Both the position numbers and the translations under genes were made by a program. Positions 1 through 12,543 of a stretch of 64,000 nucleotides of DNA are shown here, in pieces. Position 1 is the first letter of the stretch, and every line of letters starts with the position of its first letter. Source of the stretch: a bacterium. Lineage in GTDB: Bacteria; Patescibacteriota; Minisyncoccia; Phycocordibacterales; Phycocordibacteraceae. The stretch lies in contig JAJZTG010000001.1 of NCBI GenBank assembly GCA_021849125.1, positions 96,422 through 160,421 of the forward strand. Reading direction: 5' to 3'. The notes below the pieces were generated by a model. That model did no database searches, was not told the origin of the DNA, and saw only the letters and a list, made by a program, of their open reading frames with translations.

Positions 1-1
1 C

Positions 2-1330
2 GTTCAGAACGGAGTGTGCGAAAACGACGCCGATGACTTGCTTGACGTGTGGCTCATTCGTGGCGACTTTCTTCTCACGCTTTTCGACAGCCATACCTTT
101 ACACACATCGTCGGTAATCCGCCTTACATTCGACAGGAGATGGTGCCGAATGCGCTCATGGCGGAATACCGCCGTCGATTTGAGACGATCTATGACCGCG
201 CAGACATCTATGTGCCGTTTATCGAGTACTCACTCAAGCTGCTCGACGAAGGAGGAGCGCTCGGTTTCATCTGCGCCGATCGCTGGATGAAAAACCGCTA
301 TGGAGGTCCGCTCCGCGATCTCGTGGCGAGAGAGTACCACCTACGTACCTACGTCGATATGATCAATACGGACGCCTTCCACTCGGAGGTGATCGCGTAC
401 CCGGCCATTACGGTGATTGCTCGCGAACCATCCGGTCCGACGCGCATCGCCAAACAGCCGAAAATAGACGTAAAGACTCTCGCACAATTGTCACGAGCGC
501 TCACGCAGGACGAACTGCATGACAAAATTCTCGAGACGACTGTATCTGCTGGCGGGCCATGGACGCTCGACGAGTCGGATGCGCTTACGCTGATACGCCG
601 TCTCGAATCGGAACTCCCCGCACTCGAAGATGCGGGCTGCCGGGTGGGTATTGGTGTCGCTACTGGTGCGGACAGTGTCTTTATTGCACCGTTCGACACA
701 CTCAACGTCGAGTCGGACCGAAAACTTCCACTCGCCATGACCAAAGATATCCAAAGTGGAGAGATAGAGTGGAGGGGTCTCGGCGTGATAAATCCTTTCG
801 ATGAAAGCGGCAAGCTCGTGTCGCTCTCAGACTATCCGAAGTTGCGCGATTATCTCGAGCTTCACAGCGATACAATCAGAAAACGTCATGTATCAAAGAA
901 GAATCCGAATGGTTGGTACAGGACCATCGACCGCATTTATCCAGAGCTCGTTGCAAGACCAAAGCTCCTTATTCCGGACATCAAAGGTGATGCTCATATA
1001 GTGTATGAAGAGGGTCGGTTCTACCCACACCACAATCTTTATCACATTACCTCGGAGAGTTGGGACCTCCGTGCACTCAAATCTGTGCTTTCCTCAGGTA
1101 TCGCACGTCTTTTCATCGAAGCGTACTCAACACGTATGCACGGCAACTGTCTTCGTTTCCAGGCACAGTATCTGCGACGCATCCGCATCCCCCGATGGAC
1201 TGACGTGCCGAAGGACCTTCGACACCAATTGCGTGACGCGGCTGAAAAGAATGATACGGCCTCGCGCGAAGACGCTGTCTCTCGGCTCTACTCCCTAAGC
1301 ACCAAAGAGCGTGATATCATCAGGTCGTAA
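2..1330 (+). CDS. N6-adenine DNA methyltransferase, gamma-class (TaqI/Eco57I-like), 5'-truncated by window edge
   Basis: The frame is open from base 2, and the listed ORF begins at a GTG. It carries the motif IV NPPY ([11 protein letters not shown]) preceded by a GDFLL motif, followed by a long C-terminal region consistent with a target-recognition domain. Its stop codon overlaps the start of the next gene (TAATG). Confidence 0.8.
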
Positions 1331-2067
1331 TGGCCCTGAATTTAGCGAAATACGAAGAGCGTGCAAAGCGTGCAGTTAAGCTCTTTTGGGGCAATCGTGC
1401 GGCCGCTGCGCGCCAGCAGAAAGCAAACGGGGTTGTCGATCAAGGTACACGCGGAGCAGTCACGGCAGGCAAAAACATGGACGGCTTTGCCGAACTAATG
1501 GCCCAGGTGGTAAGAGCCAACGGACTTGAGCATGCGACCATAATTCACGGTGGACGTCTCGTTACTCTGCCTGGCTATTTCCGTCCTACTAAGCAATGGG
1601 ATTTCCTCGTAATCAATGAGGGACGGCTCGTTGCGGCGATTGAGTTCAAGTCGCAAGTAGGGTCTTTCGGCAACAATTTCAATAATCGCACTGAAGAAGC
1701 TATTGGTACGGCCCATGATTTATGGACGGCGTACCGTGAAGGCGCATTCGGAGAACATCCAAAGCCGTTTGTCGGATGGCTAATGCTTCTTGAGGATGCC
1801 GCCGGTTCTCGGCGCCCAGTTAACGATAATTCGCCGCACTTCCCTCTGGCTAATGACTTTGAAAATTCCTCTTATGCCGATCGATATAACGTGCTGTGTA
1901 AAAAGCTTGTGCAAGAAGGACTTTACACGTCAGCTTCAATTATGCTCTCGCCGAAATCTGCCAAACGGACAGGAGAGTATTCAAATCTGAGCGACCTAAC
2001 GAGCATAGACACTTTCGTCGCCACACTAGCAAGTCACATCGCAGGCGAAGCTGCGCGATCAAAGTGA
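1330..2067 (+). CDS. putative type II restriction endonuclease, partner of the upstream methyltransferase; possibly XhoI/PaeR7I-like
   Basis: This 245-aa ORF is translationally coupled to the methyltransferase through the TAATG overlap. Its size and the M-then-R gene order match the PaeR7I/XhoI systems as I remember them. The family assignment is inferred from context, not from recognised catalytic motifs. Confidence 0.5.
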
Positions 2068-2177: not shown

Positions 2178-2756
2178 CTATTGGGTGATCTTGGTTGGTT
2201 TCAAAAACCGCTCAGCAATGTATTCAAGGTAATTGCGAACAAGATAGAAATCCTGCATTGGGTTAAGTTCAAGTTTTGTCGCATCGCCTGCATCCGACCA
2301 GATCACAATATCAATTTCACCGTTGAGACTTAGTGCCTGAGGTTCACATGCATTTGAGGGCCTGTCGTGTTTGAAGGTTGGATGTTTTACAATGTCGTTT
2401 GCAATGTCAACGACCCGCTTAATGTTTTCAGCGTAATAAGCGTCCACTGCTTTGGCGTCGCTCAGCATCTTGCGTAAGATACTTAACGCCTCAAGCATAG
2501 TACGCAACAATGCATACATAGCGAATGCGTATGACCATGATTTGCGCATGTAATACATCACCTCGCTGTTAGTCGGGTTTTCTTTTTTAAAAAACTCGGT
2601 GTAGCTGTCGCTAAGCGACATCATCTGGTGATACGCGTAGAGGTAGTACGAAAGTGCCACATCGGCCGTATGTTTTGATTTTTGGTCTGGGAATTTGTAT
2701 CCAGCGTAAAACTCTAGAAATTGCGGGACGCTATATTTTTGGACGAGATCTTCCAT
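2178..2756 (-). CDS. hypothetical protein; second gene of the AT-rich two-gene operon
   Basis: 192-aa ORF tightly coupled to 2759..3265, with low GC and no motif I can recognise. It is divergently oriented to the KAP NTPase, with 77 bp between the two start codons. Confidence 0.5.
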   Translation of the reverse strand: MEDLVQKYSVPQFLEFYAGYKFPDQKSKHTADVALSYYLYAYHQMMSLSDSYTEFFKKENPTNSEVMYYMRKSWSYAFAMYALLRTMLEALSILRKMLSDAKAVDAYYAENIKRVVDIANDIVKHPTFKHDRPSNACEPQALSLNGEIDIVIWSDAGDATKLELNPMQDFYLVRNYLEYIAERFLKPTKITQ

Positions 2757-2758
2757 AT

Positions 2759-3265
2759 CTATCGCACCCCAATCACTTTCCTAAATTCGTTTGCCACGTG
2801 TTCTCGTTTTGGAGGAAAATCGTTTTTGTATCTCGTCACCAATTCACTCCATTTCTTTGTATCGGGACGCTCGCCGTCCAATCGTGCCTCGTACGCAAAC
2901 TCGTGGAACATAGTTTTATATTCCTCGGCGAGCTTGGCCATATCATCAGACAAACTTTTGGAGAGATAATGCCGGTTCCGTAGATAGTGGCCAATAAAAT
3001 AGTTGAAGGCCTCACTTGCTTTTACACGCCGTCGCATTTCCGCCTCTTTTGAGGCATCATCCTGGATCGGCGAAACAAGTTCACCCACGATCCGATCCAA
3101 ACGCTCCATTCTTTTCATCATTTCGTCGAGTACTTCAGCACGTTTTGCGTACAATCCAGATTCTTTGATTGATCGAACTTGCGTACGATAGTTCATCAAG
3201 CCATTTATTAGAGCGGCAGCTGCGCCAGACCCGAGCACAGATATTGAGAATGTGACCCAGTCCAT
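2759..3265 (-). CDS. hypothetical membrane-anchored protein; first gene of an AT-rich two-gene operon
   Basis: 168 aa with an N-terminal hydrophobic helix (WVTFSISVLGSGAAAALINGLM) followed by a charged, helical soluble part. GC is visibly lower than in the neighbouring genes. It lies 2 nt upstream of the next minus-strand ORF. Confidence 0.5.
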   Translation of the reverse strand: MDWVTFSISVLGSGAAAALINGLMNYRTQVRSIKESGLYAKRAEVLDEMMKRMERLDRIVGELVSPIQDDASKEAEMRRRVKASEAFNYFIGHYLRNRHYLSKSLSDDMAKLAEEYKTMFHEFAYEARLDGERPDTKKWSELVTRYKNDFPPKREHVANEFRKVIGVR

Positions 3266-3342: not shown

Positions 3343-6300
3343 GTGGAATCACCACTGCACATCCAGAAGTATCATGCCCGCCTCAAGGAAGTGTTTACTG
3401 ATTTGAGAGTGATTACTGCGAATCTTTCGGTGCTAATCAAAGCGGTTTTTCTTGGCATTCTGGTCGCTGAGATTTGGCGTCTCTCGCTCGTTGCCGCAGG
3501 AAAGGCTAATGGATGGATATTTTCAAACAACTATGAGTCCTGGGCTATTGGCATTTGCATAGCGGGAATCGCGATACTAGTCTCGTATCTTATAGCAAGA
3601 GACGTTCCTGCAGATTTCAAGAAGATTGTCGCGAGCGGCCGTATAGACGTATTTATTGCGATAAGTCTTGGTGCGTGGCTGAGCGTCGCGTGGAGCGGCT
3701 TCTTTTCAGATTGGTATACGGCTTTTGTGGCGTCGTCGAGCATTCCCCAGCTACTGACGATAATCTCCGGGCCGTTCATTCTGGCCGTTCTTATTGTGGC
3801 GAGATCTGTCGTTCGGAGGGAGAAGAAGGTTGACTCATCCTTTATAGTTGATCTCGAGCTAAACGACAAAGAGAAAGACTTGCTTGGTTTTGGCGATAAG
3901 GCGAGCAATTTCGCAGAGCGTGTCTTCAACGGCGGTTCGCCAGACAGCTTCGTATTCGGTGTCGATGCTCCATGGGGGATCGGTAAGTCGACCTTCATAA
4001 ACTTTTGCCAACAGTACTGGAGGGAGAAACATGGACACGAGATTGTAGTCTACAAATTCAGCCCGCTCCAGCACTCCGGAACAAACGACCTGCTCGACGT
4101 GTTTATTGATGGGCTCATTCAGGCAATCCAAAAGGATTCTTTTGTACCCGAGATTAAACCGCTCATCTCAAGCTACTCTCGCCTACTGAAAGAGGTCAGT
4201 CGATTTTCAATATTCGGCCTTGCTTTGCCCAGTTTCTCTACCAACTACACCGCCAAGGATGCATGCGATGATCTGACTGTTGTCCTTCGAAATTTCCATA
4301 AGAAAATAATAATCGTCGTCGACGATTTAGATCGAATCAGTTTCGATGAAATGAAGAGTATTCTCTTCGTGATCAGGAAAAGCTTCATGTTTCCGAACAT
4401 CTCATATGTCATCTGTTATGACACCGACAACATCAGCGCTCTCGAAGCAGAGACCCAGGACACGGAAAAAATAAGCGAGTTCCTAGAGAAATTCGTCAAT
4501 ATAAAAATCAGCCTCTATCTTGATCGGAAGGACTTGGTTAAGTACATCTCAGAAAATATCAGTGAGGCTCTTTCTGCGAGCACAGTGGATCCTATCTTGG
4601 TAGGACAAGCAATCGGAGGATTGAAGGATATATATAACTCGTCGATCTATCACAAGTACCTTCCATTCATCGGTGACGTCAGGAAGCTCAAGCGTCTCAT
4701 CAATACAGTGACGTTGTTCGAGCTCCAAACAACTGATTTCAAGAACACGGATTTCGACAAACGTGACTTGATCAACCTGTTGCTTATCTATATCCATTAT
4801 CCCAATGTCTTTCGAAAAATATACGACACCGAAACCGATGGAGGACGCGGATTCTTCTCTCTGGTAATTCCACACGAGGATGGATATCCAGACGAAGAGC
4901 CGGGTGCCCCTCGAAGAAACTCCCTTAGCGATTCGGAGTATAAAAATTCAAAATACTATCACGAGTATCTCAAAGAGCTCCCTGAAGGCGGTAGGCAACG
5001 CTTCCTATTGGACCAAGTGTTCAATGTAGACGTTAGATTGAAAGGCACTGGCGATAATCATTTCGCTACCCGAGACAGGTACGCTCAGATCGACAATGTA
5101 CCCGAGGACGTGCGGACATCTCTGGCCTGTTTCAATGGGGGCTGGACGAATGGCAGGAATCTAGAGACTTATCTTGACCTGATTGTTAAGCTCGCGAAAC
5201 CCGAAGAGAGTGGGCAGCATCGCTTCTACACTCGCTGGAAGGACGAGATCATTTCCGGCTCGAAAACCCTTAAAGAGGTATTTACTGACGCCAGATTTGC
5301 ATATGATAAGAGTGAAGCGCCGCGCGAGAAGCTTTGGAGAATCTTCGTCAATAATGCTAGAGACCTTAAAAAGGCGACGGCCGCATCCGTGATTTCGCAT
5401 CTGATTGAAAGTATGCCCGATTACTCGTTGCTTGAGATAAAGGAGATTGGTCTGGGTCTACGCCATAGCTTGGATTACTTTCTAACCCGTCTACTGAACG
5501 ACGCGGGCTGGACTGATCCGGCCGGTAAGCATTCCAATAACACGGAGAAACACATAAAAGAGATCGCCGAATGGGTGTTTGGTGAGAGCGCGCATTCAGA
5601 CAAAAGCATTCTCGACAGACTCTCTGCGCCCGAGCGTGGTGTATTAGGCCTATACGATTTGATGGTATTTCGACTTTCGTGCAGCGCGGATCGTGGAGGC
5701 GATATCTTTGATCTTACTCGGGCGGTCGCTCAGCACGCCAACCCCAACGCGCCCATTCAAGGCGATACACGCGACATTGCTCGTGAGGAAATGCGAGAGA
5801 TGTCTCAGAAAGTCTTCCAGATATTTAAGACACAGTACATTGATCCTAAAATAAATATCTTTGATAAAGTTGCAGCGCTGCAGATTTCTGATTTCGCCGG
5901 GAAGTACGCTACTTATCTGGCACAGAAAGTCACCGACGGAATTGTCCAACAATCTGACATAGACAAGAAAGTTGTTGAAATGAAGACTCGCATCACGAGC
6001 TTCATTCTCTACCAACTTGGGAATAACGAGATCAGTCATGGGGTTGGGTGCGGGTATTACGATCCATCTGGAACGAAGGATGGGCACGGAATCAGGAAGC
6101 TCATGAATGAATATCTCTTTGGGCTATGCTTTGACCCGTCGAAACCAGAGAACGCACAGTATTTGGTGGACTATCTGTTTAGGAATTTCGCTAATGCAAT
6201 CGCATCAGCGCGCGAGGATGGTCGAAAATACATACCGAGCATCAACGAGTTTACGAAAGTCCTCGACAAGGTTGGTCTCGCTGGCTATTGGCAGAACCAC

Positions 6301-6465
6301 GGGGCAACTATCAAGGCCCTGAAACTAGAGGATCTTGAAAAGATCGTCTTTGTCGGGAATGACGAAGCTTCGTATCGGGAATATGTGCCCTTGGTTTTTA
6401 AGGTGCTAGATGACAATCTGGCTGAGGTGCAAGCGGCGGCGGCAAAGGTTCTTGCGGCACAGTAA
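3343..6465 (+). CDS. KAP-family P-loop NTPase with four N-terminal transmembrane helices and a ~500-aa C-terminal extension
   Basis: Walker A FGVDAPWGIGKSTFIN and the KAP-type Walker B IIIVVDDLDRISF. Four hydrophobic segments fall in the first ~165 aa. The C-terminus is alpha-helical and ends in an alanine-rich stretch that looks HEAT-like. Confidence 0.8.
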   Translation: MESPLHIQKYHARLKEVFTDLRVITANLSVLIKAVFLGILVAEIWRLSLVAAGKANGWIFSNNYESWAIGICIAGIAILVSYLIARDVPADFKKIVASGRIDVFIAISLGAWLSVAWSGFFSDWYTAFVASSSIPQLLTIISGPFILAVLIVARSVVRREKKVDSSFIVDLELNDKEKDLLGFGDKASNFAERVFNGGSPDSFVFGVDAPWGIGKSTFINFCQQYWREKHGHEIVVYKFSPLQHSGTNDLLDVFIDGLIQAIQKDSFVPEIKPLISSYSRLLKEVSRFSIFGLALPSFSTNYTAKDACDDLTVVLRNFHKKIIIVVDDLDRISFDEMKSILFVIRKSFMFPNISYVICYDTDNISALEAETQDTEKISEFLEKFVNIKISLYLDRKDLVKYISENISEALSASTVDPILVGQAIGGLKDIYNSSIYHKYLPFIGDVRKLKRLINTVTLFELQTTDFKNTDFDKRDLINLLLIYIHYPNVFRKIYDTETDGGRGFFSLVIPHEDGYPDEEPGAPRRNSLSDSEYKNSKYYHEYLKELPEGGRQRFLLDQVFNVDVRLKGTGDNHFATRDRYAQIDNVPEDVRTSLACFNGGWTNGRNLETYLDLIVKLAKPEESGQHRFYTRWKDEIISGSKTLKEVFTDARFAYDKSEAPREKLWRIFVNNARDLKKATAASVISHLIESMPDYSLLEIKEIGLGLRHSLDYFLTRLLNDAGWTDPAGKHSNNTEKHIKEIAEWVFGESAHSDKSILDRLSAPERGVLGLYDLMVFRLSCSADRGGDIFDLTRAVAQHANPNAPIQGDTRDIAREEMREMSQKVFQIFKTQYIDPKINIFDKVAALQISDFAGKYATYLAQKVTDGIVQQSDIDKKVVEMKTRITSFILYQLGNNEISHGVGCGYYDPSGTKDGHGIRKLMNEYLFGLCFDPSKPENAQYLVDYLFRNFANAIASAREDGRKYIPSINEFTKVLDKVGLAGYWQNHGATIKALKLEDLEKIVFVGNDEASYREYVPLVFKVLDDNLAEVQAAAAKVLAAQ

Positions 6466-6477
6466 AGAGATTTCCCA

Positions 6478-6500
6478 AGTCATAAGAAATTTACTGCACT
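6478..6500. repeat. perfect 10-bp inverted repeat (tttactgcac tag gtgcagtaaa) just after the KAP gene stop
   Basis: Read directly from the sequence. There is no downstream T-run, so it is either a terminator-like hairpin or a protein-binding or recombination site. Confidence 0.4.
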
Positions 6501-6664
6501 AGGTGCAGTAAACTCTCTCTATGCATAAAACTCACGGTCGAAAAGCTAGCAAATAAGCCATTGCGCAAAAGTTTTAGGGCAAAATCATAATTCCGTCGTA
6601 CACGTATCGTACTTTTGCCAAGATTGTGGAATACATTTGCTCGCTTCTGTGCGATTGTCTATAC

Positions 6665-7297
6665 ATGAGCGCAAAAGATAAACGAGAGCTGGATCGGATG
6701 CTTCGAGGTGTTGGCAGAGCCATGGATCAGGCGAGAATCGACGGTCCGTTTATTAAGGCAGAAGAGAACAAGGCACTCGGTATTGCGTATACGATCAAGG
6801 ATGTGTATGTCGGAGAGGTCGCCATCAGACGTAGTGCGAACGCATGGTGGATGAATGATCAAAAAGTCGCCTTGATCATAGAGGCCATGAAAGAGGGCCA
6901 TACTGTCAACACGGCGTGTCTGTATGCTGAAATCTCCCGTGCTCAATGGGAGTACTTCAATAAAATCCATCCAGAATTTGAGGCGGTCATCGAGATGTGC
7001 GAGCAATATCAGCTCGTACGTGCTATGGACACGGTGAACCGCAACCTTAACGATCCCAAGATGGCCAGGTGGCTTCTTGAGCGACGGCACCCTAAATTCA
7101 AAACACGGCTCACGCTCGACGACGTCCTCGGTCGACAGATCCCGAGTTTGATTACGAATCTCGCGTTTCAGGACGAAAACGAAACCCCAGAGGCGATTGC
7201 AGCAAAGCTTACACAACTCGCAGAAACGATTCTTTCGGAAAACGAGGCGCGCAAGCGTGGGCTTGTAGTGCCGAATTCAAAAGCACTTTCCGATTAG
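6665..7297 (+). CDS. phage terminase small subunit-like HTH protein (Terminase_2-like)
   Basis: The C-terminal region contains MARWLLERRHPKFKTR, which resembles the W-L-L-E-R-R motif of phage TerS (P27-family) proteins as I remember it. No large terminase is nearby. The start is placed at the internal ATG at 6665. Confidence 0.45.
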   Translation: MSAKDKRELDRMLRGVGRAMDQARIDGPFIKAEENKALGIAYTIKDVYVGEVAIRRSANAWWMNDQKVALIIEAMKEGHTVNTACLYAEISRAQWEYFNKIHPEFEAVIEMCEQYQLVRAMDTVNRNLNDPKMARWLLERRHPKFKTRLTLDDVLGRQIPSLITNLAFQDENETPEAIAAKLTQLAETILSENEARKRGLVVPNSKALSD

Positions 7298-7309
7298 AAG
7301 TAACTTTTC

Positions 7310-7870
7310 TTACTTAACTACCACCCATTCGCTCGCGGACCAGCCAGCTTCCCCGACCTTGTCTGAGTCGGCTTCGGCCGCCCCCTTGGTGACGCGCACT
7401 TTCGTCAGAGTCATGCTTGTGTCGATGACCCTTACCTCCGAGCCGTTATGGACACAGAACAGCCCTTCTTTGGTCAGGTCTAGAATGCCCAGGTAGTCCT
7501 TGGCAAGAAGCGCCTTTGTGTATTCGTCGTACACGGCCTTCGTAGGCGCGAGGCAAAGCGCTTGGGTTGGGTCATCATTGCCTGGAAGTCGAAGATACGC
7601 ATCTTGCCCGAGCGTCCGCGCTTCGCTTGGTCCAGCGTTTCTTTGTGTCGTAGCTGTAGCGTTCTCGGTGGCGCTGTTGATGGAACTGAGTACTGCTCCG
7701 AACAAGAAGAGGCCGACAAAGAGGCTGAAAACAGGATGGCGATGTGGCCAGCTTCGCAAATCAGATTGGCAATAAGGGCACTTCTTTGCAGCGGAGGGAA
7801 TATCCTTACTGCAATGTGGGCACGATTTTGTCTCTGCAGAGTTCTGAGTCATGGGAATTATGCGATCCAA
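7310..7870 (-). CDS. membrane protein with an N-terminal zinc ribbon (CPHC...CPYC) and a single TM helix
   Basis: Two CxxC pairs near the N-terminus, then the hydrophobic stretch VFSLFVGLFLFGAVL, then a soluble C-terminal domain. Confidence 0.5.
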   Translation of the reverse strand: MDRIIPMTQNSAETKSCPHCSKDIPSAAKKCPYCQSDLRSWPHRHPVFSLFVGLFLFGAVLSSINSATENATATTQRNAGPSEARTLGQDAYLRLPGNDDPTQALCLAPTKAVYDEYTKALLAKDYLGILDLTKEGLFCVHNGSEVRVIDTSMTLTKVRVTKGAAEADSDKVGEAGWSASEWVVVK

Positions 7871-7883
7871 TAATTCCCGTGCA

Positions 7884-8078
7884 GGACGCAGAAACCCGCC
7901 ACGGGCAATGAGGTTTCCCCCAAGGGCGGATCACGCCGAACCCCGTGACGGGTTTCTGCGCGTGATCCGACTTGAAGACCATGCCGCGGCCGGAGCCTTC
8001 GGTTTAGGTCCCGCCCCTCACGGGGCGCATATTCGTGTGTAGCACATGTTCATGATAGCCCAGAGCGGCTATCATCGG
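7884..8078 (+). ncRNA. structured RNA / regulatory leader with mutually exclusive hairpins
   Basis: Bases 7887-7905 are complementary to 7942-7960 (19 bp, one mismatch). Bases 7927-7936 are complementary to 7960-7969 (10 bp), and that second 3' arm abuts the 3' arm of the first hairpin. Further GC hairpins follow (cgcccctcacggggcg and tgatagcc..ggctatca). All of this sits upstream of the gene starting at 8129. Confidence 0.35.
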
Positions 8079-8128
8079 AACCCCTATCACTGACTTGCAG
8101 AAAAGCCAAGGAGGCATAGCATTTTGGT

Positions 8129-8899
8129 ATGAACGCTCACGAGGCTAGCACCTCGGTTTTTACAAGTGACCGTGATGTCATTGCGGAGATTGAGCGCATT
8201 TTGCCGCAGCCACTGGTCGATTCTCTGAAGGAGCGCATTTTACAGGACAGGGTGTACGATCCTGCCCATGCCGAAGCGTTCAGTCTCCTAAAGGAGGCAT
8301 TTCGTAAGATTGGTTTTCGAGTAAATAGAAAAACACTCGCCACAAAGCTAAGAGATTTTCAACGCGCCCTCGAGAGATTCGACGACGAGCTCATTTCAAA
8401 CTTTGCGTACGAACCACACCAAAAGCTATATGCTGTCCATCCAAGTCGTCGAAATGGCGTGGCTTTAATGCGTGAGCTTCGGCAGTCTTACGATCTGTTT
8501 GCAAAAACATACCGTCTTCTACTGAGCGAGGCTACAACTGCGTTCCATTCGTCAGTTGTGGAAGAGTCCGTCGAGCTCCAGAATCTCACAATCAGATTCT
8601 CGAATGAAGAGGGTGCAATCTATGTTGGTGAGAGTCGTTGCCAACTCCCGCCGTTCAAAAATGGCCACTATCTTTGCAGAGTCATGTTTACTAAACCGCC
8701 CAAAGTGCCAGTCGACTGGTCAGACGTGGCCAACGAAATGTTCGGCAAGGATCCCATAAGACGGGCAGAACGTCTTCGGTTAGAAAGAAAAGTTAGAGAT
8801 GCAATGTATGCAGTAAATCGAATCGTTGGGAAATTGAATACCCCCGATAAGTTATTTACCTGGAAAGACAAGACAATTATTCGAAACTATGGCCGATAA
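8129..8899 (+). CDS. hypothetical protein
   Basis: 256-aa ORF inside the low-GC mobile region with no motif I can recognise. Confidence 0.5.
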   Translation: MNAHEASTSVFTSDRDVIAEIERILPQPLVDSLKERILQDRVYDPAHAEAFSLLKEAFRKIGFRVNRKTLATKLRDFQRALERFDDELISNFAYEPHQKLYAVHPSRRNGVALMRELRQSYDLFAKTYRLLLSEATTAFHSSVVEESVELQNLTIRFSNEEGAIYVGESRCQLPPFKNGHYLCRVMFTKPPKVPVDWSDVANEMFGKDPIRRAERLRLERKVRDAMYAVNRIVGKLNTPDKLFTWKDKTIIRNYGR

Positions 8900-9049
8900 C
8901 TCTCAGGTGATTCACCTCTGAATTCTTTAGGCTGTCGCCAGCTCGTTTCTTTTTGAAGGAGTCATGAACGCTCCTGGTAAAACCCTCTGCTTTCTTGGCA
9001 GGTGCTCTTAGAGCGTTCATCCCTGTCAAGAAAGGAGCGGGCTTTACTC

Positions 9050-9229
9050 ATGGCAAGCCAGCAACTAGCACAGAAATTCAAAGATGCGATTGCAGAAGAT
9101 TTCGACAAAGAAGTCTCTCTCGACGACGCTAGCCGGATGCTCTCAGATCTGGTTGGTTATTTTGACCTGCTTGCGAAGTTGCGGCACCAAATAACGGATC
9201 AAAATCATGGATCAAAGAAATCAAATTGA
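9050..9229 (+). CDS. small hypothetical protein
   Basis: Internal ATG within ORF 9002..9229 (MASQQLAQKF...), lying in the mobile-element context. Confidence 0.3.
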   Translation: MASQQLAQKFKDAIAEDFDKEVSLDDASRMLSDLVGYFDLLAKLRHQITDQNHGSKKSN

Positions 9230-9964
9230 GGCAGTATTGAGGCTACATCTTAACGAAAGAGTTATCGCATTCCACCCAATATACGCAAAAATCTTGGGAG
9301 GAATTGAGGAGGCCATATTCTTTCAGCAGATTTGTTTTTGGAGCGATAAAGGTAAACGTGATGATGGTGCTATATACAAAACGTCTAAGGATATCGAGGA
9401 GGAGACAACGCTTAGCGATCGGGTACAGCGCCGCGTGAAGAAAAAATTCAGGAGCTCGGACTGCTTGAGATTTGGCTTGAGAAGGTCGGAGGCGGTCCTG
9501 TATGCCACTACCGCGTGCACTGGGATGTCCTGCGAAAATGCCTAAAGGATTTCTACCAACTGTCGGAATCCTCTATATATTCAGAAACTACTCCAAGAAA
9601 AAAGAATGCGGTTTCTTCAAAGCAAGAAACCGCAACCACCTCCTCCCGGGGGAAATTCAATGCCACGAACGTAAGGATGACCAGATATAAAAATCCTGCC
9701 GTGCAAGAAATCGTTGAGACGTTCGTGAGACAGTGCGAGAAAAATATGGGCATTGCCCCAGTAATCGGTGCAGACGACTTCCGCATGGCTTCTTATGCTC
9801 TCAACCGCGGAGGGCTTTCAAAGGAAATGGTGTTTGAGATGATTGATGATTGGTTCGCGCAGCCGACAAAGGATGGCGACATATTGCATCTCACCAGAGC
9901 CATCTCAAAGAGCAGAATCAATACCTATCGAGGAGAGAACGTTAACAGGTTCAAGAGATCTTAA
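9207..9964 (+). pseudogene. winged-HTH (replication-initiator-like?) gene split by a -1 frameshift at an A6 tract; pseudogene, homopolymer error or recoding
   Basis: ORF 9207..9545 reads ...LSDRVQRRVKKK across aag aaa aaa at 9438-9446. The -1 frame continues without a stop from 9416 as IQELGLLEIWLEKVGGGPVCHYRVHWDVL..., and runs into ORF 9515..9964. One extra A would fuse the two into a protein of roughly 250 aa. Confidence 0.4.
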
Positions 9965-10161
9965 TTAACTTTATGGAAACAAAAAACGAAAAAGGACGGG
10001 TGCTATCAGCAAGTGAACGACTGCGAGAAGACTTGGAGTATGCAATCGGCAGATTCGTCGAAAAACTAAAGAGAGAGATTGGAGTTCGTTAAGACTTGCA
10101 TTCCCGTCCCACGAAGGTACTATCCCGACCCCCGGGGATTACGGGACATAAAAACGGACCT

Positions 10162-11733
10162 ATGGAAAAAGCCATCATCTACACACGCGTTTCGTCGAAA
10201 GAGCAGGAAGAAACCGGCTACTCGCTCGATGCGCAGGAGCAGTTCCTAAAGGAATACGCTCAAAAGCTTGGGCTCCCGGTTGCCAAAATCTACAAGGTCA
10301 CCGAGTCCGCGAGTAAATGGCAACTGCGCAAGACGCTCGACGCCATGCTCGAATACGCTGTTGAGCACGATGTGAAAGTTATCCTTGGTGAGAAGATCGA
10401 TCGACTGACCCGCAGTCTCAAGGACGCCGCAATCATCGATGACTGGGTGCACGACGAGGACGGGCGTCAGGTGCACTTCGTCAAAGAACACTTCATCGTC
10501 AGCAAGGAAACGCGTGCGCACGATAACTTCGTGTGGGACATGAAGGTCGCTGTGGCGCGCTTCTACACAAACAATCTCTCGGAGGAAGTTAAGAAGGGTC
10601 AGAAGCAGAAGATTGCCGAGGGATGGTTGCCGACCAAGCCACCACTCGGTTACAAGACCGTCGGCGAAAAAGGAAAGAAGATCCACATGATCGATGACGA
10701 CAAGGCTCCGTTCGTGCGACGTATGTTCGAGATGTATTCGAGCGGTAACTACTCTGTCATCTCTCTTGCGGATGCAATGTATCGCGACGGGCTTCGGAAT
10801 CGCGCCAACAAGAAGGTTGGCAAGAGCCGCATGTACGACATGCTGCGCGATCCGTTCTACTACGGCGCGATGCAATGGAAGGGTCAGGTGTTTGCAGCCA
10901 AGCACGAGCCACTCATTTCCAAAGAACTCTTCGACCGCGTACAGGCGCTCTTAGCGCGACCGTTCAATCAACTCCAAATGCAGAAACACCTACCGGTGTT
11001 CAAGGCGAAGATGCGCTGTGGCGCGTGCGGCGGCTCGGTAACGTGGGAGACGCACAAGGGCTACTGGTACGGCCACTGCAACGGTTACAAGCGCAAGGAC
11101 ATGAAGGCAAAATGCGAAAGCCGCCACATCTTCCTGCGTCAGGACAGGATCGAGGAACTCATGTTCCCGTTGTTCGAAAAAGCTACACCCAAAGGCGCAC
11201 ATGTGATCGAAGTGCTGAAGGAGGCATTGAAGGAAAGCCACGCGGAAGAAGTCGACCGATTCGATGCGCAGCTCACAAGTCTCAACCTGACGATCGACCG
11301 ATCTCAACGACGACTCGAAACGATCTACGAGGACAAGCTAGATGGCAAGATTTCGGCGGAAATGTATGAAAGCTTGGCCAAGCGCTATTCCAGCGAGAAA
11401 GAGGCTGCTACGGGCGAAATTTCGCGCCTGAACCGGGGTAACAAGCGCTACTACGAGGCTGGGTATGCCATTCACGAGCTCGCTCTCCAGGCAGCGGCCA
11501 TTTACAGCGACGAAAAGACGACGAACGAGGATCGTCGGATGCTCCTGAGCTATGTTTTTTCGAACATCGAGCTAAACGGCGAAGAACCTAAGTTTTTCTA
11601 CACGCCAGCGTTCGATTTCGTGGTGAATTGGGTACCCAAGCTAAATTTGATTTTAGAACTCGAAAATAGCTTGGAAACTAAAAGACGAAATGGCGCTTTC
11701 GCGCCATCTCATCCTGTTCTGCTCCGCGGGTAG
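10162..11733 (+). CDS. large serine recombinase (integrase)
   Basis: N-terminal resolvase catalytic domain with IIYTRVSSKEQ (catalytic Ser). A recombinase domain follows, then a zinc ribbon CGACGG...HCNGYKRK and a coiled-coil C-terminus. The stop codon at 11731-11733 overlaps the tRNA 3' end. Confidence 0.9.
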   Translation: MEKAIIYTRVSSKEQEETGYSLDAQEQFLKEYAQKLGLPVAKIYKVTESASKWQLRKTLDAMLEYAVEHDVKVILGEKIDRLTRSLKDAAIIDDWVHDEDGRQVHFVKEHFIVSKETRAHDNFVWDMKVAVARFYTNNLSEEVKKGQKQKIAEGWLPTKPPLGYKTVGEKGKKIHMIDDDKAPFVRRMFEMYSSGNYSVISLADAMYRDGLRNRANKKVGKSRMYDMLRDPFYYGAMQWKGQVFAAKHEPLISKELFDRVQALLARPFNQLQMQKHLPVFKAKMRCGACGGSVTWETHKGYWYGHCNGYKRKDMKAKCESRHIFLRQDRIEELMFPLFEKATPKGAHVIEVLKEALKESHAEEVDRFDAQLTSLNLTIDRSQRRLETIYEDKLDGKISAEMYESLAKRYSSEKEAATGEISRLNRGNKRYYEAGYAIHELALQAAAIYSDEKTTNEDRRMLLSYVFSNIELNGEEPKFFYTPAFDFVVNWVPKLNLILELENSLETKRRNGAFAPSHPVLLRG

Positions 11734-11759
11734 GATTCGAACCTACGACCAACTCGTTA

Positions 11760-12363
11760 CACGTTCTCTCTTGTTACCAAGAGCGTGGACTATATCATCA
11801 CCCGTATCTGCGTCATGCAGATCGAGGGTGCGAGGCGCTTCCCCAGCCCCAGTTTTGGACTCAAAACTCGTTTGAATTCAAAACTGGAGCTGGGTACTCC
11901 CTTGCGGGATAGTCTCTAGACCTTCTCATCTTCCGATGAGCTTGGCTCGGGATTGCCCACAGCATTTCCTCTGTTAGGGGTTCCCCGAATTCACCTCGTG
12001 TTCGACCTAAATCTCTTTAGGAAGCTGCGTAATGCCTGCGTGCAATTCGCGGTGACAGTTCGCACAAACAAGAACGCATTTATCGATTTCTTCTTTGATC
12101 TTTTCCCAAGATCTCGTGAGACCTTTCGTCGAGAGACCGAAGTCTTTCTGGCTCGGATCTTTGTGATGAAAATCGAGTGCTCCTGAATAACGACTGTATC
12201 CGCACATAACGCACTTCCCGCCCTTGTATTCGCGCGCCATTTCTCGAAGCTTCTTTCGACGCTCCGAAACGGCTTTACGCAAGTACTCGGCACGGTCGGC
12301 ATAAGTCCTTTTCTCTTTTGGCATACTCATTTAAGTATACCACTCGGGTTTTGGACTTGAACC
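11760..12363 (-). mobile_element. group I self-splicing intron carrying an HNH homing endonuclease ORF
   Basis: R element AGAGACUA (plus-strand 11910-11919), S element GAUAUAGUCC (11788-11797), and a P9 hairpin CUCUUG-GUAA-CAAGAG just before the 3' splice site. The 5' exon ends in U and the intron ends in G. The HNH ORF lies in the same orientation, about 35 nt inside the intron. Confidence 0.65.
12007..12330 (-). CDS. HNH homing endonuclease (intron-encoded)
   Basis: 107 aa with CVMCGY ... DFHHKD ... LVCANCHRELH, the classic HNH Cys/His arrangement. Confidence 0.8.
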   Translation of the reverse strand: MSMPKEKRTYADRAEYLRKAVSERRKKLREMAREYKGGKCVMCGYSRYSGALDFHHKDPSQKDFGLSTKGLTRSWEKIKEEIDKCVLVCANCHRELHAGITQLPKEI

Positions 12364-12387
12364 ACAGCGAGCCGCTCTACCACTGAG

Positions 12388-12543
12388 CTACCGCGGAATG
12401 TATTTTCCTTCCGCGGCAGCTCAGGTCTGAGCTACCACCGAAGGGGCCGAGCGAAATATGAAAGTATTCTTTGCATATTTCCGAGGCCCCGAACGGGAGC
12501 AAGCAGTTGCGAAGCAATCTGCTTACCGCGGAATGTATTTTGT
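12388..12543. repeat. 18-bp direct repeat (taccgcggaatgtatttt) at 12388-12406 and 12526-12543, bracketing a GC-rich hairpin cluster
   Basis: The first copy covers the tRNA 5' end plus its immediate upstream sequence. The segment between the copies contains a long near-perfect hairpin (12447-12495). Confidence 0.5.

What the first reader, a model, noticed from the sequence alone, without database searches (positions are those of the whole stretch)
6470..11733. Compact integrative element (PICI-like satellite?) inserted at the tRNA 3' end
The large serine recombinase gene ends 12 nt inside the tRNA 3' end. Upstream of it, in a lower-GC block, sit a TerS-like HTH gene with no large terminase, a Zn-ribbon membrane protein, hypotheticals and a wHTH replication-like gene. 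An integrase plus terminase small subunit plus replication-like gene, with no structural genes, is the signature of phage-inducible chromosomal islands and satellites. Here the integrase is a serine recombinase, which fits its position directly against the att site.
Basis: inference. Interest (0 to 1): 0.5.

Follow-up and report, generated by a model that had tools for sequence, protein, structure and literature searches.

The report
Serine-integrase island split at tRNA-Asn
A 12.2-kb mobile island carrying anti-phage defence genes and phage-satellite-like genes is inserted at the end of a tRNA-Asn gene by a large serine integrase whose attachment site lies inside its own gene, so that insertion swaps the enzyme's last 33 amino acids; I found no description of this arrangement for serine integrases.

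Summary
The large serine recombinase (LSR) ORF ends exactly 12 nt inside a tRNA 3' end. The tRNA is tRNA-Asn(GUU), split by a 604-nt group I intron, which is why ARAGORN's default run misses it. The 'TerS-like' gene belongs to a rare family, one member of which sits directly upstream of TerL in a phage. The replication-like gene matches phage O/DnaD-like initiators but has a 1-nt frameshift. No TerL or structural gene is present.

The proposed left boundary (6470) is wrong. The far end lies 516 nt left of the window start. There, 99 nt encode the conserved C-terminal tail (…LLAW··FRTYDW···LLALV) found in full-length homologs of this LSR. Joining the two ends rebuilds that gene, so attP lies inside the LSR ORF, the crossover core is GCTC (tRNA G71–C74), and the element is 12,237 bp. 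It includes a type II RM system and a PifA-like KAP NTPase.

The LSR/tRNA-Asn junction recurs in at least 10 other contigs and in 34 of the 120 closest homologs, mostly from Patescibacteria, with varied defence cargo and no phage structural genes. I rate the integrative element as near-certain and the phage-satellite lifestyle as plausible but unproven.

The parts
1..1330 (+). C-terminal 438 aa of a 566-aa type II N6-adenine DNA methyltransferase (Eco57I/TaqI_C type). The gene starts 370 nt before the window. Further left, off-window, are the 99-nt tail fragment of the recombinase gene (window -515..-417) and the left core GCTC (window -516..-513 = L002 8155-8158).
   Evidence: Pfam PF07669 2e-21. 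PADLOC MTase_II 7.5e-236 on the full gene L002:8301-10001. Tail fragment: tblastn E 3e-11. Three-context breakpoint.
1330..2067 (+). XhoI-family type II restriction endonuclease (cargo).
   Evidence: Pfam PF04555 2e-86. PADLOC REase_II 1.6e-104.
2178..2756 (-). Hypothetical 192-aa protein (cargo region).
   Evidence: No Pfam, PHROG, NCBIfam or PADLOC match. Present with the RM genes in L003-L006.
2759..3265 (-). Hypothetical 168-aa protein (cargo region).
   Evidence: No significant family match.
3343..6465 (+). 1040-aa KAP-family P-loop NTPase, PifA-like (defence-type cargo).
   Evidence: Pfam PF07693 1e-38. PADLOC PifA 1.1e-27, QatA 3e-9.
6698..7297 (+). TerS-like protein (199 aa from the called start; the ORF is open from 6626).
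   Evidence: PHROG 4102 terminase small subunit 9e-11. Only 5 relatives among 5.8e9 proteins. Homolog P0005 overlaps the start of TerL in a 40-kb phage contig. Weak viral fold matches including small terminases.
7310..7870 (-). Zn-ribbon protein.
   Evidence: Zn-ribbon Pfam hits below cut-off. It occupies the slot taken by other small, mostly membrane, proteins in related contigs.
7895..8010 (-). LOOT RNA, immediately 5' of the Zn-ribbon gene.
   Evidence: Rfam RF03000 48.9 bits here. 73-77 bits at the equivalent place in L157, L153, L154, L156 and L065.
8129..8899 (+). Hypothetical 256-aa protein conserved with the closest related element.
   Evidence: 62% identity to the gene in the same position in L157. 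No family match.
9050..9229 (+). orf59, a small protein conserved upstream of the recombinase in relatives. Candidate directionality factor or regulator (inferred).
   Evidence: tblastn hits upstream of LSR genes in L097, L042, L065 and L157-L160.
9207..9964 (+). Replication-initiator-like wHTH gene, frameshifted by a 1-nt deletion at about 9446.
   Evidence: PHROG 9773 'replication initiation O-like' 1.4e-17 and DnaD-like 5e-10. Intact 242-aa allele P0126 at 98% identity. L164 alignment shows one gap at 9446.
10162..11733 (+). Large serine recombinase in its integrated (truncated) form, 523 aa, ending ...HPVLLRG. The last 4 codons and the stop are tRNA sequence.
   Evidence: Pfam PF00239, PF07508, PF13408. 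PHROG 95 integrase 1.6e-78. At least 1944 homologs.
11682..11715 (-). Hairpin (15-bp stem, GAAA loop) plus T-run, 7 nt downstream of the tRNA and inside the recombinase's C-terminal codons. It is the element-supplied terminator for the tRNA, and its loop is the distal motif of the attP left arm.
   Evidence: Terminator-like site. CTTTCG at -25..-20 from the core in most related junctions.
11721..11724 (.). Right-hand crossover core GCTC (GAGC on the tRNA strand, G71-C74). Right boundary of the element.
   Evidence: Only sequence shared by attL and attR here and by the L003/L004 junctions; present in natural attP sites of L158, L161, L162.
11722..12397 (-). tRNA-Asn(GUU), the integration target (attB). 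Exon 1 is 12397-12364, the group I intron is 12363-11760 (604 nt, position 35/36), and exon 2 is 11759-11722.
   Evidence: Rfam RF00028. ARAGORN on spliced sequences and with introns allowed. Identical intron-less genes. Published phenomenon (PMC13011429).
12007..12330 (-). HNH homing-endonuclease ORF inside the intron. It belongs to the tRNA, not to the element.
   Evidence: Pfam PF01844 8e-5. Homologs of 55-75% identity in other intron-bearing tRNA-Asn loci.

Best explanation
This is a 12,237-bp integrative mobile island in a probable Patescibacteria chromosome. It was inserted at the 3' end of tRNA-Asn(GUU) by its own large serine recombinase (LSR).

In the free circular form, attP lies inside the 3' end of the LSR gene, around codons 519-521 of a 553-aa protein. 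Recombination with the tRNA end occurs in a shared GCTC/GAGC core (tRNA G71-C74).

After integration:
- the tRNA is intact up to its discriminator base and acquires a new terminator hairpin supplied by the element;
- the LSR ORF runs 12 nt into the tRNA and stops at a TAG in the T-stem (...LLRG);
- its last 33 codons (AWEAAFRTYDWAKAFPDPEVATRQIQGLLALV) are left at the far end of the island, 12.2 kb away, next to what used to be the tRNA's downstream flank.

Between the ends lie a recombination module (hyp256, orf59, rep, LSR), a TerS-like gene, a LOOT RNA with a small Zn-ribbon gene, and defence cargo (PifA-like KAP NTPase, type II RM).

Shown from sequence: the ends, the core, the split gene, the family-wide junction and the cargo.

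Inferred: orf59 may act as directionality factor or regulator. After excision the O/DnaD-like initiator would replicate the circle and the TerS-like protein would direct it into a helper phage's capsids, as in a PICI. I put that lifestyle at about 0.4-0.5. This particular copy has a frameshifted rep gene and may be crippled.
For: Ends:
- Three different left-hand contexts abut one point (L002 8155): this genome and contigs L003 and L004 from other samples, which are 99.96% identical to the island from there on.
- The 99 nt that follow encode a peptide 67% identical to the C-terminal tail of full-length LSR homologs (E 3e-11). It is the only such hit in 72.7 kb, and it has the same orientation as the LSR gene.
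- Joining the LSR 3' end to it gives an ORF that homologs of 546-594 aa cover at 99-100%.
- The reconstructed attP shares 24 identical nt with the natural site in L158-160, whose LSR is only 54% identical.

Junction:
- LSR homologs end 12 nt inside tRNA-Asn in 10 other contigs. 34 of the 120 closest homologs end LLRG and at least 13 carry the full tail.

att architecture:
- The core is GCTC. TTCGAAC lies at +17..23 in the attP right arm and at +12..18 in the tRNA arm. There are no long direct repeats.

Foreign origin:
- GC is 0.494 against 0.575 and 0.59 in the flanks. Housekeeping genes lie on both sides.

Satellite-like content:
- TerS-like gene and rep-like gene. No TerL, portal or capsid gene.
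- Relatives carry other defence cargo and no structural genes.
Against: - No empty attB site or circular form was found. The only syntenic relative (L110) is rearranged.
- The tail fragment was not found at the far ends of the other integrated loci I hold.
- The flanks of L003 and L004 are only 64 and 21 nt long.
- Some full-length LSR genes lie in chromosome-like contigs with no tRNA nearby, which the simple model does not explain.

Against the satellite reading specifically:
- rep is frameshifted.
- No repressor or regulator module and no primase/helicase were recognised.
- IMG/VR holds no relative of the TerS-like gene.
- The TerS fold model has low confidence (pLDDT 62), there is no significant PDB match, and viral fold matches are weak.
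- TerS-like and rep genes are absent from most related LSR elements.
Confidence: 0.8

Rival explanations
1. Same integrative island and same integration mechanism, but not a phage satellite. It is a cargo-carrying defence island or integrative plasmid-like element that spreads by other routes (vesicles, transformation, or the episymbiotic contact typical of these bacteria). The TerS-like protein would act as an HTH regulator or be a relic.
For: Most related LSR elements at tRNA-Asn carry only defence or anti-restriction cargo and lack TerS-like and rep genes. No relative of the TerS-like gene is in IMG/VR. rep is frameshifted here. Tycheposons show that cargo-type and PICI-like elements can share one integration backbone.
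Against: The TerS-like family includes a member in the canonical TerS position overlapping TerL and matches a TerS PHROG. The gene is retained at 55-69% identity in three other small, structural-gene-free contexts that also share the LOOT RNA, which argues for selection.
Confidence: 0.4
2. It is a decayed prophage remnant. The LSR, TerS and rep genes are what is left of a full temperate phage that lost its structural genes.
For: The TerS homolog is found in a complete phage. rep carries a frameshift. LSRs are common prophage integrases (own knowledge).
Against: Both ends are intact and rebuild a complete LSR gene. The left 5.1 kb is 99.96% identical in three flanking contexts, which indicates recent mobility. 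None of the related LSR elements examined (L065, L066, L111, L142, L157) has structural genes. The space is filled with defence cargo rather than phage pseudogenes.
Confidence: 0.07
3. There is no mobile element. The recombinase/tRNA overlap is a chance or assembly juxtaposition and the region is ordinary chromosome.
For: No empty site was found. Several assemblies break in this region.
Against: The identical junction geometry recurs in many independent contigs and samples. The window and L002 agree base for base over 11.9 kb. See also the GC shift, the defence cargo and the split-gene reconstruction.
Confidence: 0.01

Closest known systems
Large serine recombinase (serine integrase) elements such as phiC31, Bxb1, A118 and SCCmec Ccr
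   Same: Same three-domain enzyme (resolvase, recombinase, zinc ribbon). Short att sites with a tiny common core and no long direct repeats. Arms carry a distal motif that is spaced differently in attP and attB. A small accessory gene lies nearby that could be a directionality factor.
   Different: The target is the 3' end of a tRNA gene. [quoted passage not shown] Also, attP lies inside the integrase's own coding sequence, so the protein's C-terminus differs between the free and integrated states.
SSV-family 'suicidal' tyrosine integrases of archaeal viruses and plasmids (PMC7253208)
   Same: attP lies within the integrase ORF, the target is a tRNA gene, and integration partitions the integrase gene between the two ends of the element.
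   Different: They belong to an unrelated enzyme family (tyrosine recombinases) and occur in archaea. There the split destroys the gene. Here only the last 33 of 553 codons are exchanged and all recognised domains stay intact.
Tycheposons of Prochlorococcus and other marine bacteria (bioRxiv 10.1101/2020.12.28.424599)
   Same: 10-20 kb elements integrated at tRNA genes, with replication genes. They come in PICI-like (terS or MCP) and cargo-carrying versions that share one integration backbone. A minority (27 of 937) carry a large serine recombinase.
   Different: Tycheposons are defined by a specific clade of tyrosine recombinases and are flanked by partial tRNA repeats. Here the integrase is an LSR, there is no tRNA repeat, the host is a probable Patescibacterium, and the cargo is defence rather than nutrient acquisition.
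Phage-inducible chromosomal islands (PICIs / SaPIs) and other phage satellites
   Same: Size about 12 kb. Integrase + replication initiator + small terminase, with no capsid, tail or lysis genes. Site-specific insertion. Carriage of anti-phage defence genes.
   Different: The integrase is serine type. No Stl/AlpA-type regulator and no primase-helicase were recognised. The rep gene is frameshifted. There is no evidence of induction or packaging.
Integration-dependent immunity of cluster G/N/P mycobacteriophages (own knowledge; Broussard et al. 2013; mentioned in papers listed)
   Same: attP lies inside a phage gene, so integration at a tRNA changes that protein's C-terminus. This acts as a switch between the free and integrated states.
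   Different: In those phages the gene crossed by attP is the repressor, the integrase is a tyrosine recombinase, and the removed tail is a known degradation tag. Here the gene is the serine integrase itself and the function of the tail is unknown.

Membership tests
Large serine recombinase integrases | N-terminal resolvase catalytic domain with a serine nucleophile | tested here: met
   PF00239 2.5e-24, residues 26-176 of the 545-aa ORF. The motif ...IIYTRVSSKEQ is read from the sequence.
Large serine recombinase integrases | Recombinase domain and zinc-ribbon domain C-terminal to the catalytic domain | tested here: met
   PF07508 3.6e-18 and PF13408 8.3e-7. PHROG 95 'integrase' 1.6e-78.
Large serine recombinase integrases | Short att sites with a few-bp common core and no long direct repeats flanking the element | tested here: met
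   No copy of the tRNA 3' end elsewhere. A 4-nt core GCTC is shared by attL and attR.
Large serine recombinase integrases | attP half-sites carry the distal motif about 5 bp further from the centre than attB half-sites (structural model of the A118/LI integrase; own knowledge) | tested here: inconclusive
   TTCGAAC is at +17..23 in four attP right arms and at +12..18 in the tRNA arm. The host-side attB arm shows no conserved motif. No binding data exist.
Large serine recombinase integrases | Catalyses attP x attB recombination | not testable with these tools
   Needs an in vitro or in vivo assay.
PICI / phage satellite | Site-specific integrase at one end; size about 7-18 kb | tested here: met
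   LSR at the right end; 12,237 bp from core to core.
PICI / phage satellite | Packaging-hijack gene (terS, capsid or redirecting protein) | tested here: met
   PHROG 4102 TerS 9e-11. A homolog lies upstream of TerL in a phage. Met at the level of homology only; the function is untested.
PICI / phage satellite | Own replication module (primase/helicase-type rep and ori) | tested here: inconclusive
   An O-like/DnaD-like initiator is present but frameshifted. No primase or helicase was recognised.
PICI / phage satellite | Master repressor or regulatory module (Stl, AlpA) that senses the helper | tested here: not met
   No such family among the element's proteins in Pfam, PHROGs or NCBIfam. hyp256 and orf59 remain unassigned.
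PICI / phage satellite | Absence of capsid, tail, TerL and lysis genes | tested here: met
   Gene tables and Pfam. No match to phage L151 TerL, portal or MCP.
PICI / phage satellite | Induction by, and packaging into particles of, a helper phage | not testable with these tools
   The only indirect test, a search of IMG/VR viral contigs for relatives of the TerS-like gene, found none.
Tycheposons | Integration at a tRNA 3' end, leaving partial tRNA repeats | tested here: not met
   A tRNA target is present, but there is no partial tRNA copy at the far end.
Tycheposons | Hallmark tRNA-associated tyrosine recombinase clade | tested here: not met
   The integrase is a serine recombinase. Only 27 of 937 tycheposon-like elements have an LSR.
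SSV-type integrases | attP inside the integrase ORF; gene partitioned on integration into a tRNA | tested here: met
SSV-type integrases | Tyrosine recombinase catalytic fold | tested here: not met
   Resolvase-type serine recombinase.
Group I intron at position 35/36 of Patescibacteria tRNA-Asn (PMC13011429) | RF00028 intron between U35 and U36 of tRNA-Asn(GUU), optionally with an HNH gene; mis-called by ARAGORN as tRNA-Thr(UGU) with the intron at 33/34 | tested here: met
   Described.

The most novel reading that the evidence does not exclude
This island may represent a very large, undescribed family of Patescibacteria mobile elements. They would be mobilised by tRNA-Asn-targeting large serine integrases whose attP lies in their own coding end, so that integration and excision toggle a conserved 33-aa C-terminal tail. 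That tail could be a built-in switch of integrase stability or directionality, by analogy with integration-dependent immunity. The elements would carry exchangeable defence cargo, a LOOT-RNA-controlled membrane effector and, in some members, TerS and Rep genes. That would make these members the first phage satellites of the candidate phyla radiation that I am aware of.
Probability: 0.3. Interest if true: 0.8.

Novelty: new variant of a known kind. Interest (0 to 1): 0.64.

Why it matters
Serine integrases are the main tools for inserting large DNA, and their natural targets are thought to be protein-coding or intergenic sites. A large family (at least 1944 homologs) that targets a universally conserved tRNA end would extend that picture. 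So would an attP embedded in the enzyme's own reading frame.

It would also give ready-made attP/attB pairs for Patescibacteria, a major group with almost no genetic tools. It suggests a simple self-regulating switch, because the integrase differs between the free and integrated states.

These elements appear to be a main vehicle for defence genes (RM systems, PifA-like NTPase, helicase/ATPase pairs) in genomes that are otherwise highly reduced. If the TerS and Rep members are packaged by phages, they would show that phage satellites exist in this group.

On the practical side, the case shows that tRNA-based island finders miss such elements twice: the tRNA is intron-split, and there is no flanking tRNA repeat.

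Tried and rejected
1. Reference-genome scan with the left-flank PolX-like gene. The best hit was a 61%-identical Saccharibacteria MAG with no tRNA and no synteny.

2. L110 as an empty site. It shares SET, hyp220, DAGK and PAP2, but the tRNA is inverted relative to SET and other housekeeping genes intervene. It is not a clean attB.

3. Search for a displaced tRNA 3' fragment as the far boundary, in this island and in 10 related loci. None was found.

4. My by-eye impression that the far end resembles the tRNA 3' end. The local-alignment score is 14, against 16-20 for background windows. Dropped.

5. A 14-nt inverted match of the tRNA end inside the XhoI gene (pair I24). I judged it to be chance.

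6. Look-ups of identical SET and LSR proteins in other assemblies. These gave the same strain, with contigs breaking in the LSR or the intron.

7. IMG/VR search for relatives of the TerS-like gene. None found.

8. PDB sequence and fold searches for the TerS-like protein. Nothing significant. The AlphaFold model has only pLDDT 62.

9. Search for the tail-coding fragment at the far ends of other integrated elements. Not found.

10. My first guess that the rep frameshift lay within the A-run (slippage). Alignment to L164 shows a missing C just after the run. A sequencing error cannot be excluded, although two assemblies agree.

11. Rfam at permissive threshold for the structured segment upstream of the tRNA. 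Only chance-level hits.

Full report
**1. The observation**

ORF 10096-11733 (probable start ATG 10162, 523 aa) has the three domains of a large serine recombinase (LSR): Resolvase, Recombinase and Zn_ribbon_recom (PHROG 95 'integrase' 1.6e-78).

ARAGORN's default run finds no tRNA anywhere in the window. Rfam finds a group I intron at 11767-12054 on the minus strand, and the flanking sequence reads as two tRNA halves. Joined, they fold as a canonical tRNA. With introns allowed, ARAGORN calls the gene with a 604-nt intron.

Intron-less genes in other contigs (L035, L042, L076, L110) are identical to the splice variant with anticodon GUU. So this is tRNA-Asn(GUU) with the intron between positions 35 and 36 and an HNH gene inside it. 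A 2026 paper on Patescibacteria describes exactly this, including ARAGORN's mis-call as tRNA-Thr with the intron at 33/34 (PMC13011429).

The tRNA's discriminator base is at 11722 and the recombinase stop codon at 11731-11733.

**2. The other genes**

- The 'TerS-like' protein matches PHROG 4102, terminase small subunit (9e-11), and nothing in Pfam or NCBIfam.
- It has only five relatives among 5.8 billion proteins. One of them (40% identity) lies immediately upstream of, and overlapping, a TerL gene in a 40-kb phage contig. Portal, minor capsid and major capsid genes follow. The others (55-69% identity) lie in small contigs without structural genes, next to defence-like genes.
- A structure model has modest confidence (pLDDT 62). 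It gives weak matches to viral proteins, including small terminases, and nothing significant in the PDB.
- The replication-like gene matches phage O-like and DnaD-like initiators. It is in two frames. An intact 242-aa allele exists in another sample (98% identity), and the DNA alignment shows a single missing C at about 9446 in the window.
- The Zn-ribbon protein is confirmed at sub-threshold level.
- No TerL, portal or capsid gene lies between the host flanks.

**3. The boundaries**

The window starts inside a methylase gene. A second assembly that is identical over 11.9 kb (L002) shows housekeeping genes (MreB, def, fmt, HPF, PAP2, DAGK) up to about 1 kb left of the window. The foreign block follows. 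GC is 0.494 in the island against 0.575 and 0.59 in the flanks.

There is no second copy of the tRNA end anywhere. That is expected for a serine recombinase.

Two contigs from other samples (L003, L004) match the island at 99.96% from exactly L002 position 8155. Each has a different, unrelated sequence to the left of that point. So three contexts abut one breakpoint.

The decisive evidence came from the recombinase family.
- Most close homologs are about 520 aa and end ...LLRG.
- A subset of 546-594 aa continues ...LLAW..FRT[YF]DW..A...PE......LLALV.
- The 99 nt that follow the breakpoint encode LAWEAAFRTYDWAKAFPDPEVATRQIQGLLALV-stop. This is 67% identical to the tail of P0033 (E 3e-11), is the only such hit in 72.7 kb, and has the same orientation as the recombinase gene.

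Joining the right end of the island to its left end therefore rebuilds a full-length 553-aa gene. The geometry (host flank | tail, methylase ... rep, recombinase body | tRNA) is what a single attP x attB event produces when attP lies inside the gene.

The element is 12,237 bp from core to core: window -516 to 11724. It includes the type II RM pair, two hypothetical genes and a PifA-like KAP NTPase.

**4. The att sites**

- attL, attR, the L003 and L004 junctions, and the natural attP sites in three full-length genes share only GCTC. On the tRNA strand this is GAGC, G71 to C74.
- The reconstructed attP shares 24 consecutive nt with the site in L158-160, whose recombinase is only 54% identical.
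- The right arm of attP carries (T)TTCGAAC at +17..23, which also encodes the conserved FRT of the tail. The tRNA arm carries the same heptamer (its T-loop) at +12..18, exactly 5 nt closer.
- The left arm of attP carries CTTTCG at -25..-20 in most elements.
- A distal motif set further out in attP than in attB is what the structural model of serine integrases predicts (own knowledge). I treat this as consistent with that model, not as proof.
- The left-arm motif is the GAAA loop of a 15-bp hairpin followed by a T-run, 7 nt after the tRNA. So the element supplies the tRNA with a new terminator from within the recombinase's last codons.
- The host sequence at the far end also contains a hairpin and T-run by eye, as expected for the displaced native terminator. 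The scan did not call it.

**5. Is it a family?**

Yes. A metagenome scan for the tRNA's 3' 29 nt returned 120 contigs. In 10 of them an LSR homolog (23-54% identity) ends 12 nt inside the tRNA with ...LRG-stop. In two more a more distant LSR reads 59 nt into the tRNA in another frame.

The protein search found at least 1944 homologs at E < 1e-20. The source names I saw were Yonath-, Pace-, Moran- and Ryanbacteria and Parcubacteria. Of the best 120, 34 end LLRG and at least 13 have the full tail. Many others end in peptides such as ...LLRRQDSNLRP. That is the translation of a reverse-complemented tRNA T-arm, so these appear to have the same junction with tRNAs whose T-stem lacks the TAG. Which tRNA was not determined; this is an inference.

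Cargo differs from element to element:

| Locus | Cargo |
|---|---|
| L065 | HpaII-type RM |
| L111 | Type III RM |
| L142 | LexA-like repressor with SMC-like ATPase and helicase |
| L066 | ArdC-like anti-restriction protein |

None has phage structural genes.

The closest relative (L157, 73% identical LSR) shares hyp256 (62%) and orf59 (58%) and has the same layout. orf59 homologs lie upstream of the LSR in seven loci.

LOOT RNA (RF03000) scores 73-77 bits in L157, L065, L153, L154 and L156. It is always just 5' of a small, mostly membrane, protein gene. This links the TerS-like contigs to the LSR elements.

**6. How it most likely works**

Shown from sequence:
- the two ends, the core and the split gene;
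- the intact tRNA with a replacement terminator;
- the defence cargo;
- the recurrence of the junction in other contigs.

Inferred:
- The 553-aa enzyme made from the circular form integrates the element at tRNA-Asn.
- The 523-aa integrated form keeps all recognised domains. Together with a directionality factor (candidate: orf59), it excises the element and restores the full gene.
- The tail may modulate stability or directionality, by analogy with integration-dependent immunity in mycobacteriophages. This is speculative.
- After excision, the initiator would replicate the circle and the TerS-like protein would recruit a helper phage's TerL to package it, as in PICIs.

I put the integrative-element model at about 0.9 and the satellite lifestyle at 0.4-0.5. 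The main rival is a cargo-type island that does not depend on phages. A prophage remnant is unlikely, given intact ends, near-identical copies in three contexts and no structural genes anywhere in the family.

**7. Comparison with what is known**

- The enzyme is a member of the large serine recombinases (domains met).
- The element works like a PICI or a PICI-like tycheposon, but it fails or cannot be tested on several defining features: no regulator module, no primase/helicase, and no evidence of induction.
- It is not a tycheposon in the strict sense: no tyrosine recombinase and no tRNA repeat.
- An attP inside the integrase ORF is known for archaeal SSV-type tyrosine integrases (PMC7253208). 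I found no example among serine integrases.
[quoted passage not shown] The 2022 LSR survey has no mention of tRNA. No paper in the library links Saccharibacteria, mobile elements and serine recombinases.
- The library is incomplete, so prior description elsewhere cannot be excluded. phiRSM, a small resolvase-like recombinase, is cited. From my own knowledge it targets a tRNA gene.

**8. Verdict**

I class it as a new variant of a known kind.

**9. What remains unexplained**

- Full-length LSR genes in chromosome-like contigs with no tRNA nearby.
- L003 and L004 both end at the same base inside the KAP gene.
- The tail fragment is absent from the far ends of the other integrated loci I hold.
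- There is a very stable 125-nt tRNA-like fold just upstream of tRNA-Asn.

Noticed in passing
window 11760-12363 (-), with ORF 12007-12330 (-): A 604-nt group I intron at position 35/36 of tRNA-Asn(GUU), carrying an HNH homing-endonuclease gene. ARAGORN's default run misses the tRNA, and with introns allowed it mis-calls it as tRNA-Thr(UGU). About 15 other fetched contigs have the same intron, 7 of them with an HNH homolog. This is already published for Patescibacteria (PMC13011429).
   Followed up: yes
window 12410-12533 (-); repeats at 12389-12406 and 12524-12541: A 125-nt segment between the SET-gene terminator and tRNA-Asn folds into a very stable three-arm structure (-66.6 kcal/mol, z = -7.2). 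It is closed by the same UCCGCGG/CCGCGGA stem as the tRNA and is preceded by an exact 18-nt copy of the tRNA's leader and 5' end. It matches no Rfam family. It could be a tRNA-derived RNA or a duplication scar; the nature is unknown.
   Followed up: partly
window 7895-8010 (-); also L157 8143-8273, L065 5763-5886, L153 4712-4845, L154 4725-4853, L156 2270-2398: LOOT RNA (RF03000) is a recurrent part of this element family. It always lies immediately 5' of a small gene, usually for a membrane protein (Zn-ribbon, Imm_superinfect/SHOCT, PH_gly_zipper). This suggests a cis-regulator of a membrane effector.
   Followed up: partly
L158 8896-10548, L159 1532-3184, L160 4045-5697: Full-length, unsplit recombinase genes with an intact attP lie in contigs from three samples. 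A type I RM system is on one side. NUDIX, UvrD, UbiA, KsgA and ComM-like genes are on the other. No tRNA is nearby. The simple integrate-at-tRNA model does not explain this.
   Followed up: partly
L003 and L004, last base = window 4595 (inside the KAP NTPase gene): Two independent assemblies of the island's left part end at exactly the same base inside the KAP gene. This suggests a strain-variable junction or an assembly-graph branch there.
   Followed up: no
L002 7702-8070 (-), about 600-970 nt left of the window start: A 122-aa hypothetical gene with low GC (0.45) lies between the island's left end and the DAGK gene, with its own terminator. It may be a remnant of an earlier insertion at the same tRNA, or just an orphan gene.
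   Followed up: no
L110 11199-11271 (+) versus window 11722-12397 (-): In the only syntenic relative (SET 79%, hyp220 76% identity), the identical but intron-less tRNA-Asn points the other way relative to the SET gene. TruB, PAS, AI-2E permease, HAD and Pcp genes separate it from DAGK. So the locus is rearranged between relatives.
   Followed up: partly
L132, directly downstream of its tRNA-Asn: A partial second copy of the tRNA 3' end (GCGAATCCTACCCGCAGAGCA) follows the intact tRNA after 12 nt. This kind of repeat is what tyrosine-integrase elements leave, so both integrase types may use this tRNA.
   Followed up: no
L111 4618-6141 and L131 (LSR ORF ending 59 nt inside the tRNA): A more distant LSR subgroup (about 26% identity) also abuts tRNA-Asn but reads 59 nt into it in another frame (...APRVGFEPTTN...). 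This implies a different crossover point or an independent acquisition of the same target.
   Followed up: no
window 1446-1459 (+) versus 11719-11732: There is a 14-nt inverted match (13 of 14 nt) to the tRNA end/crossover region inside the XhoI endonuclease gene. I judged it to be chance.
   Followed up: partly
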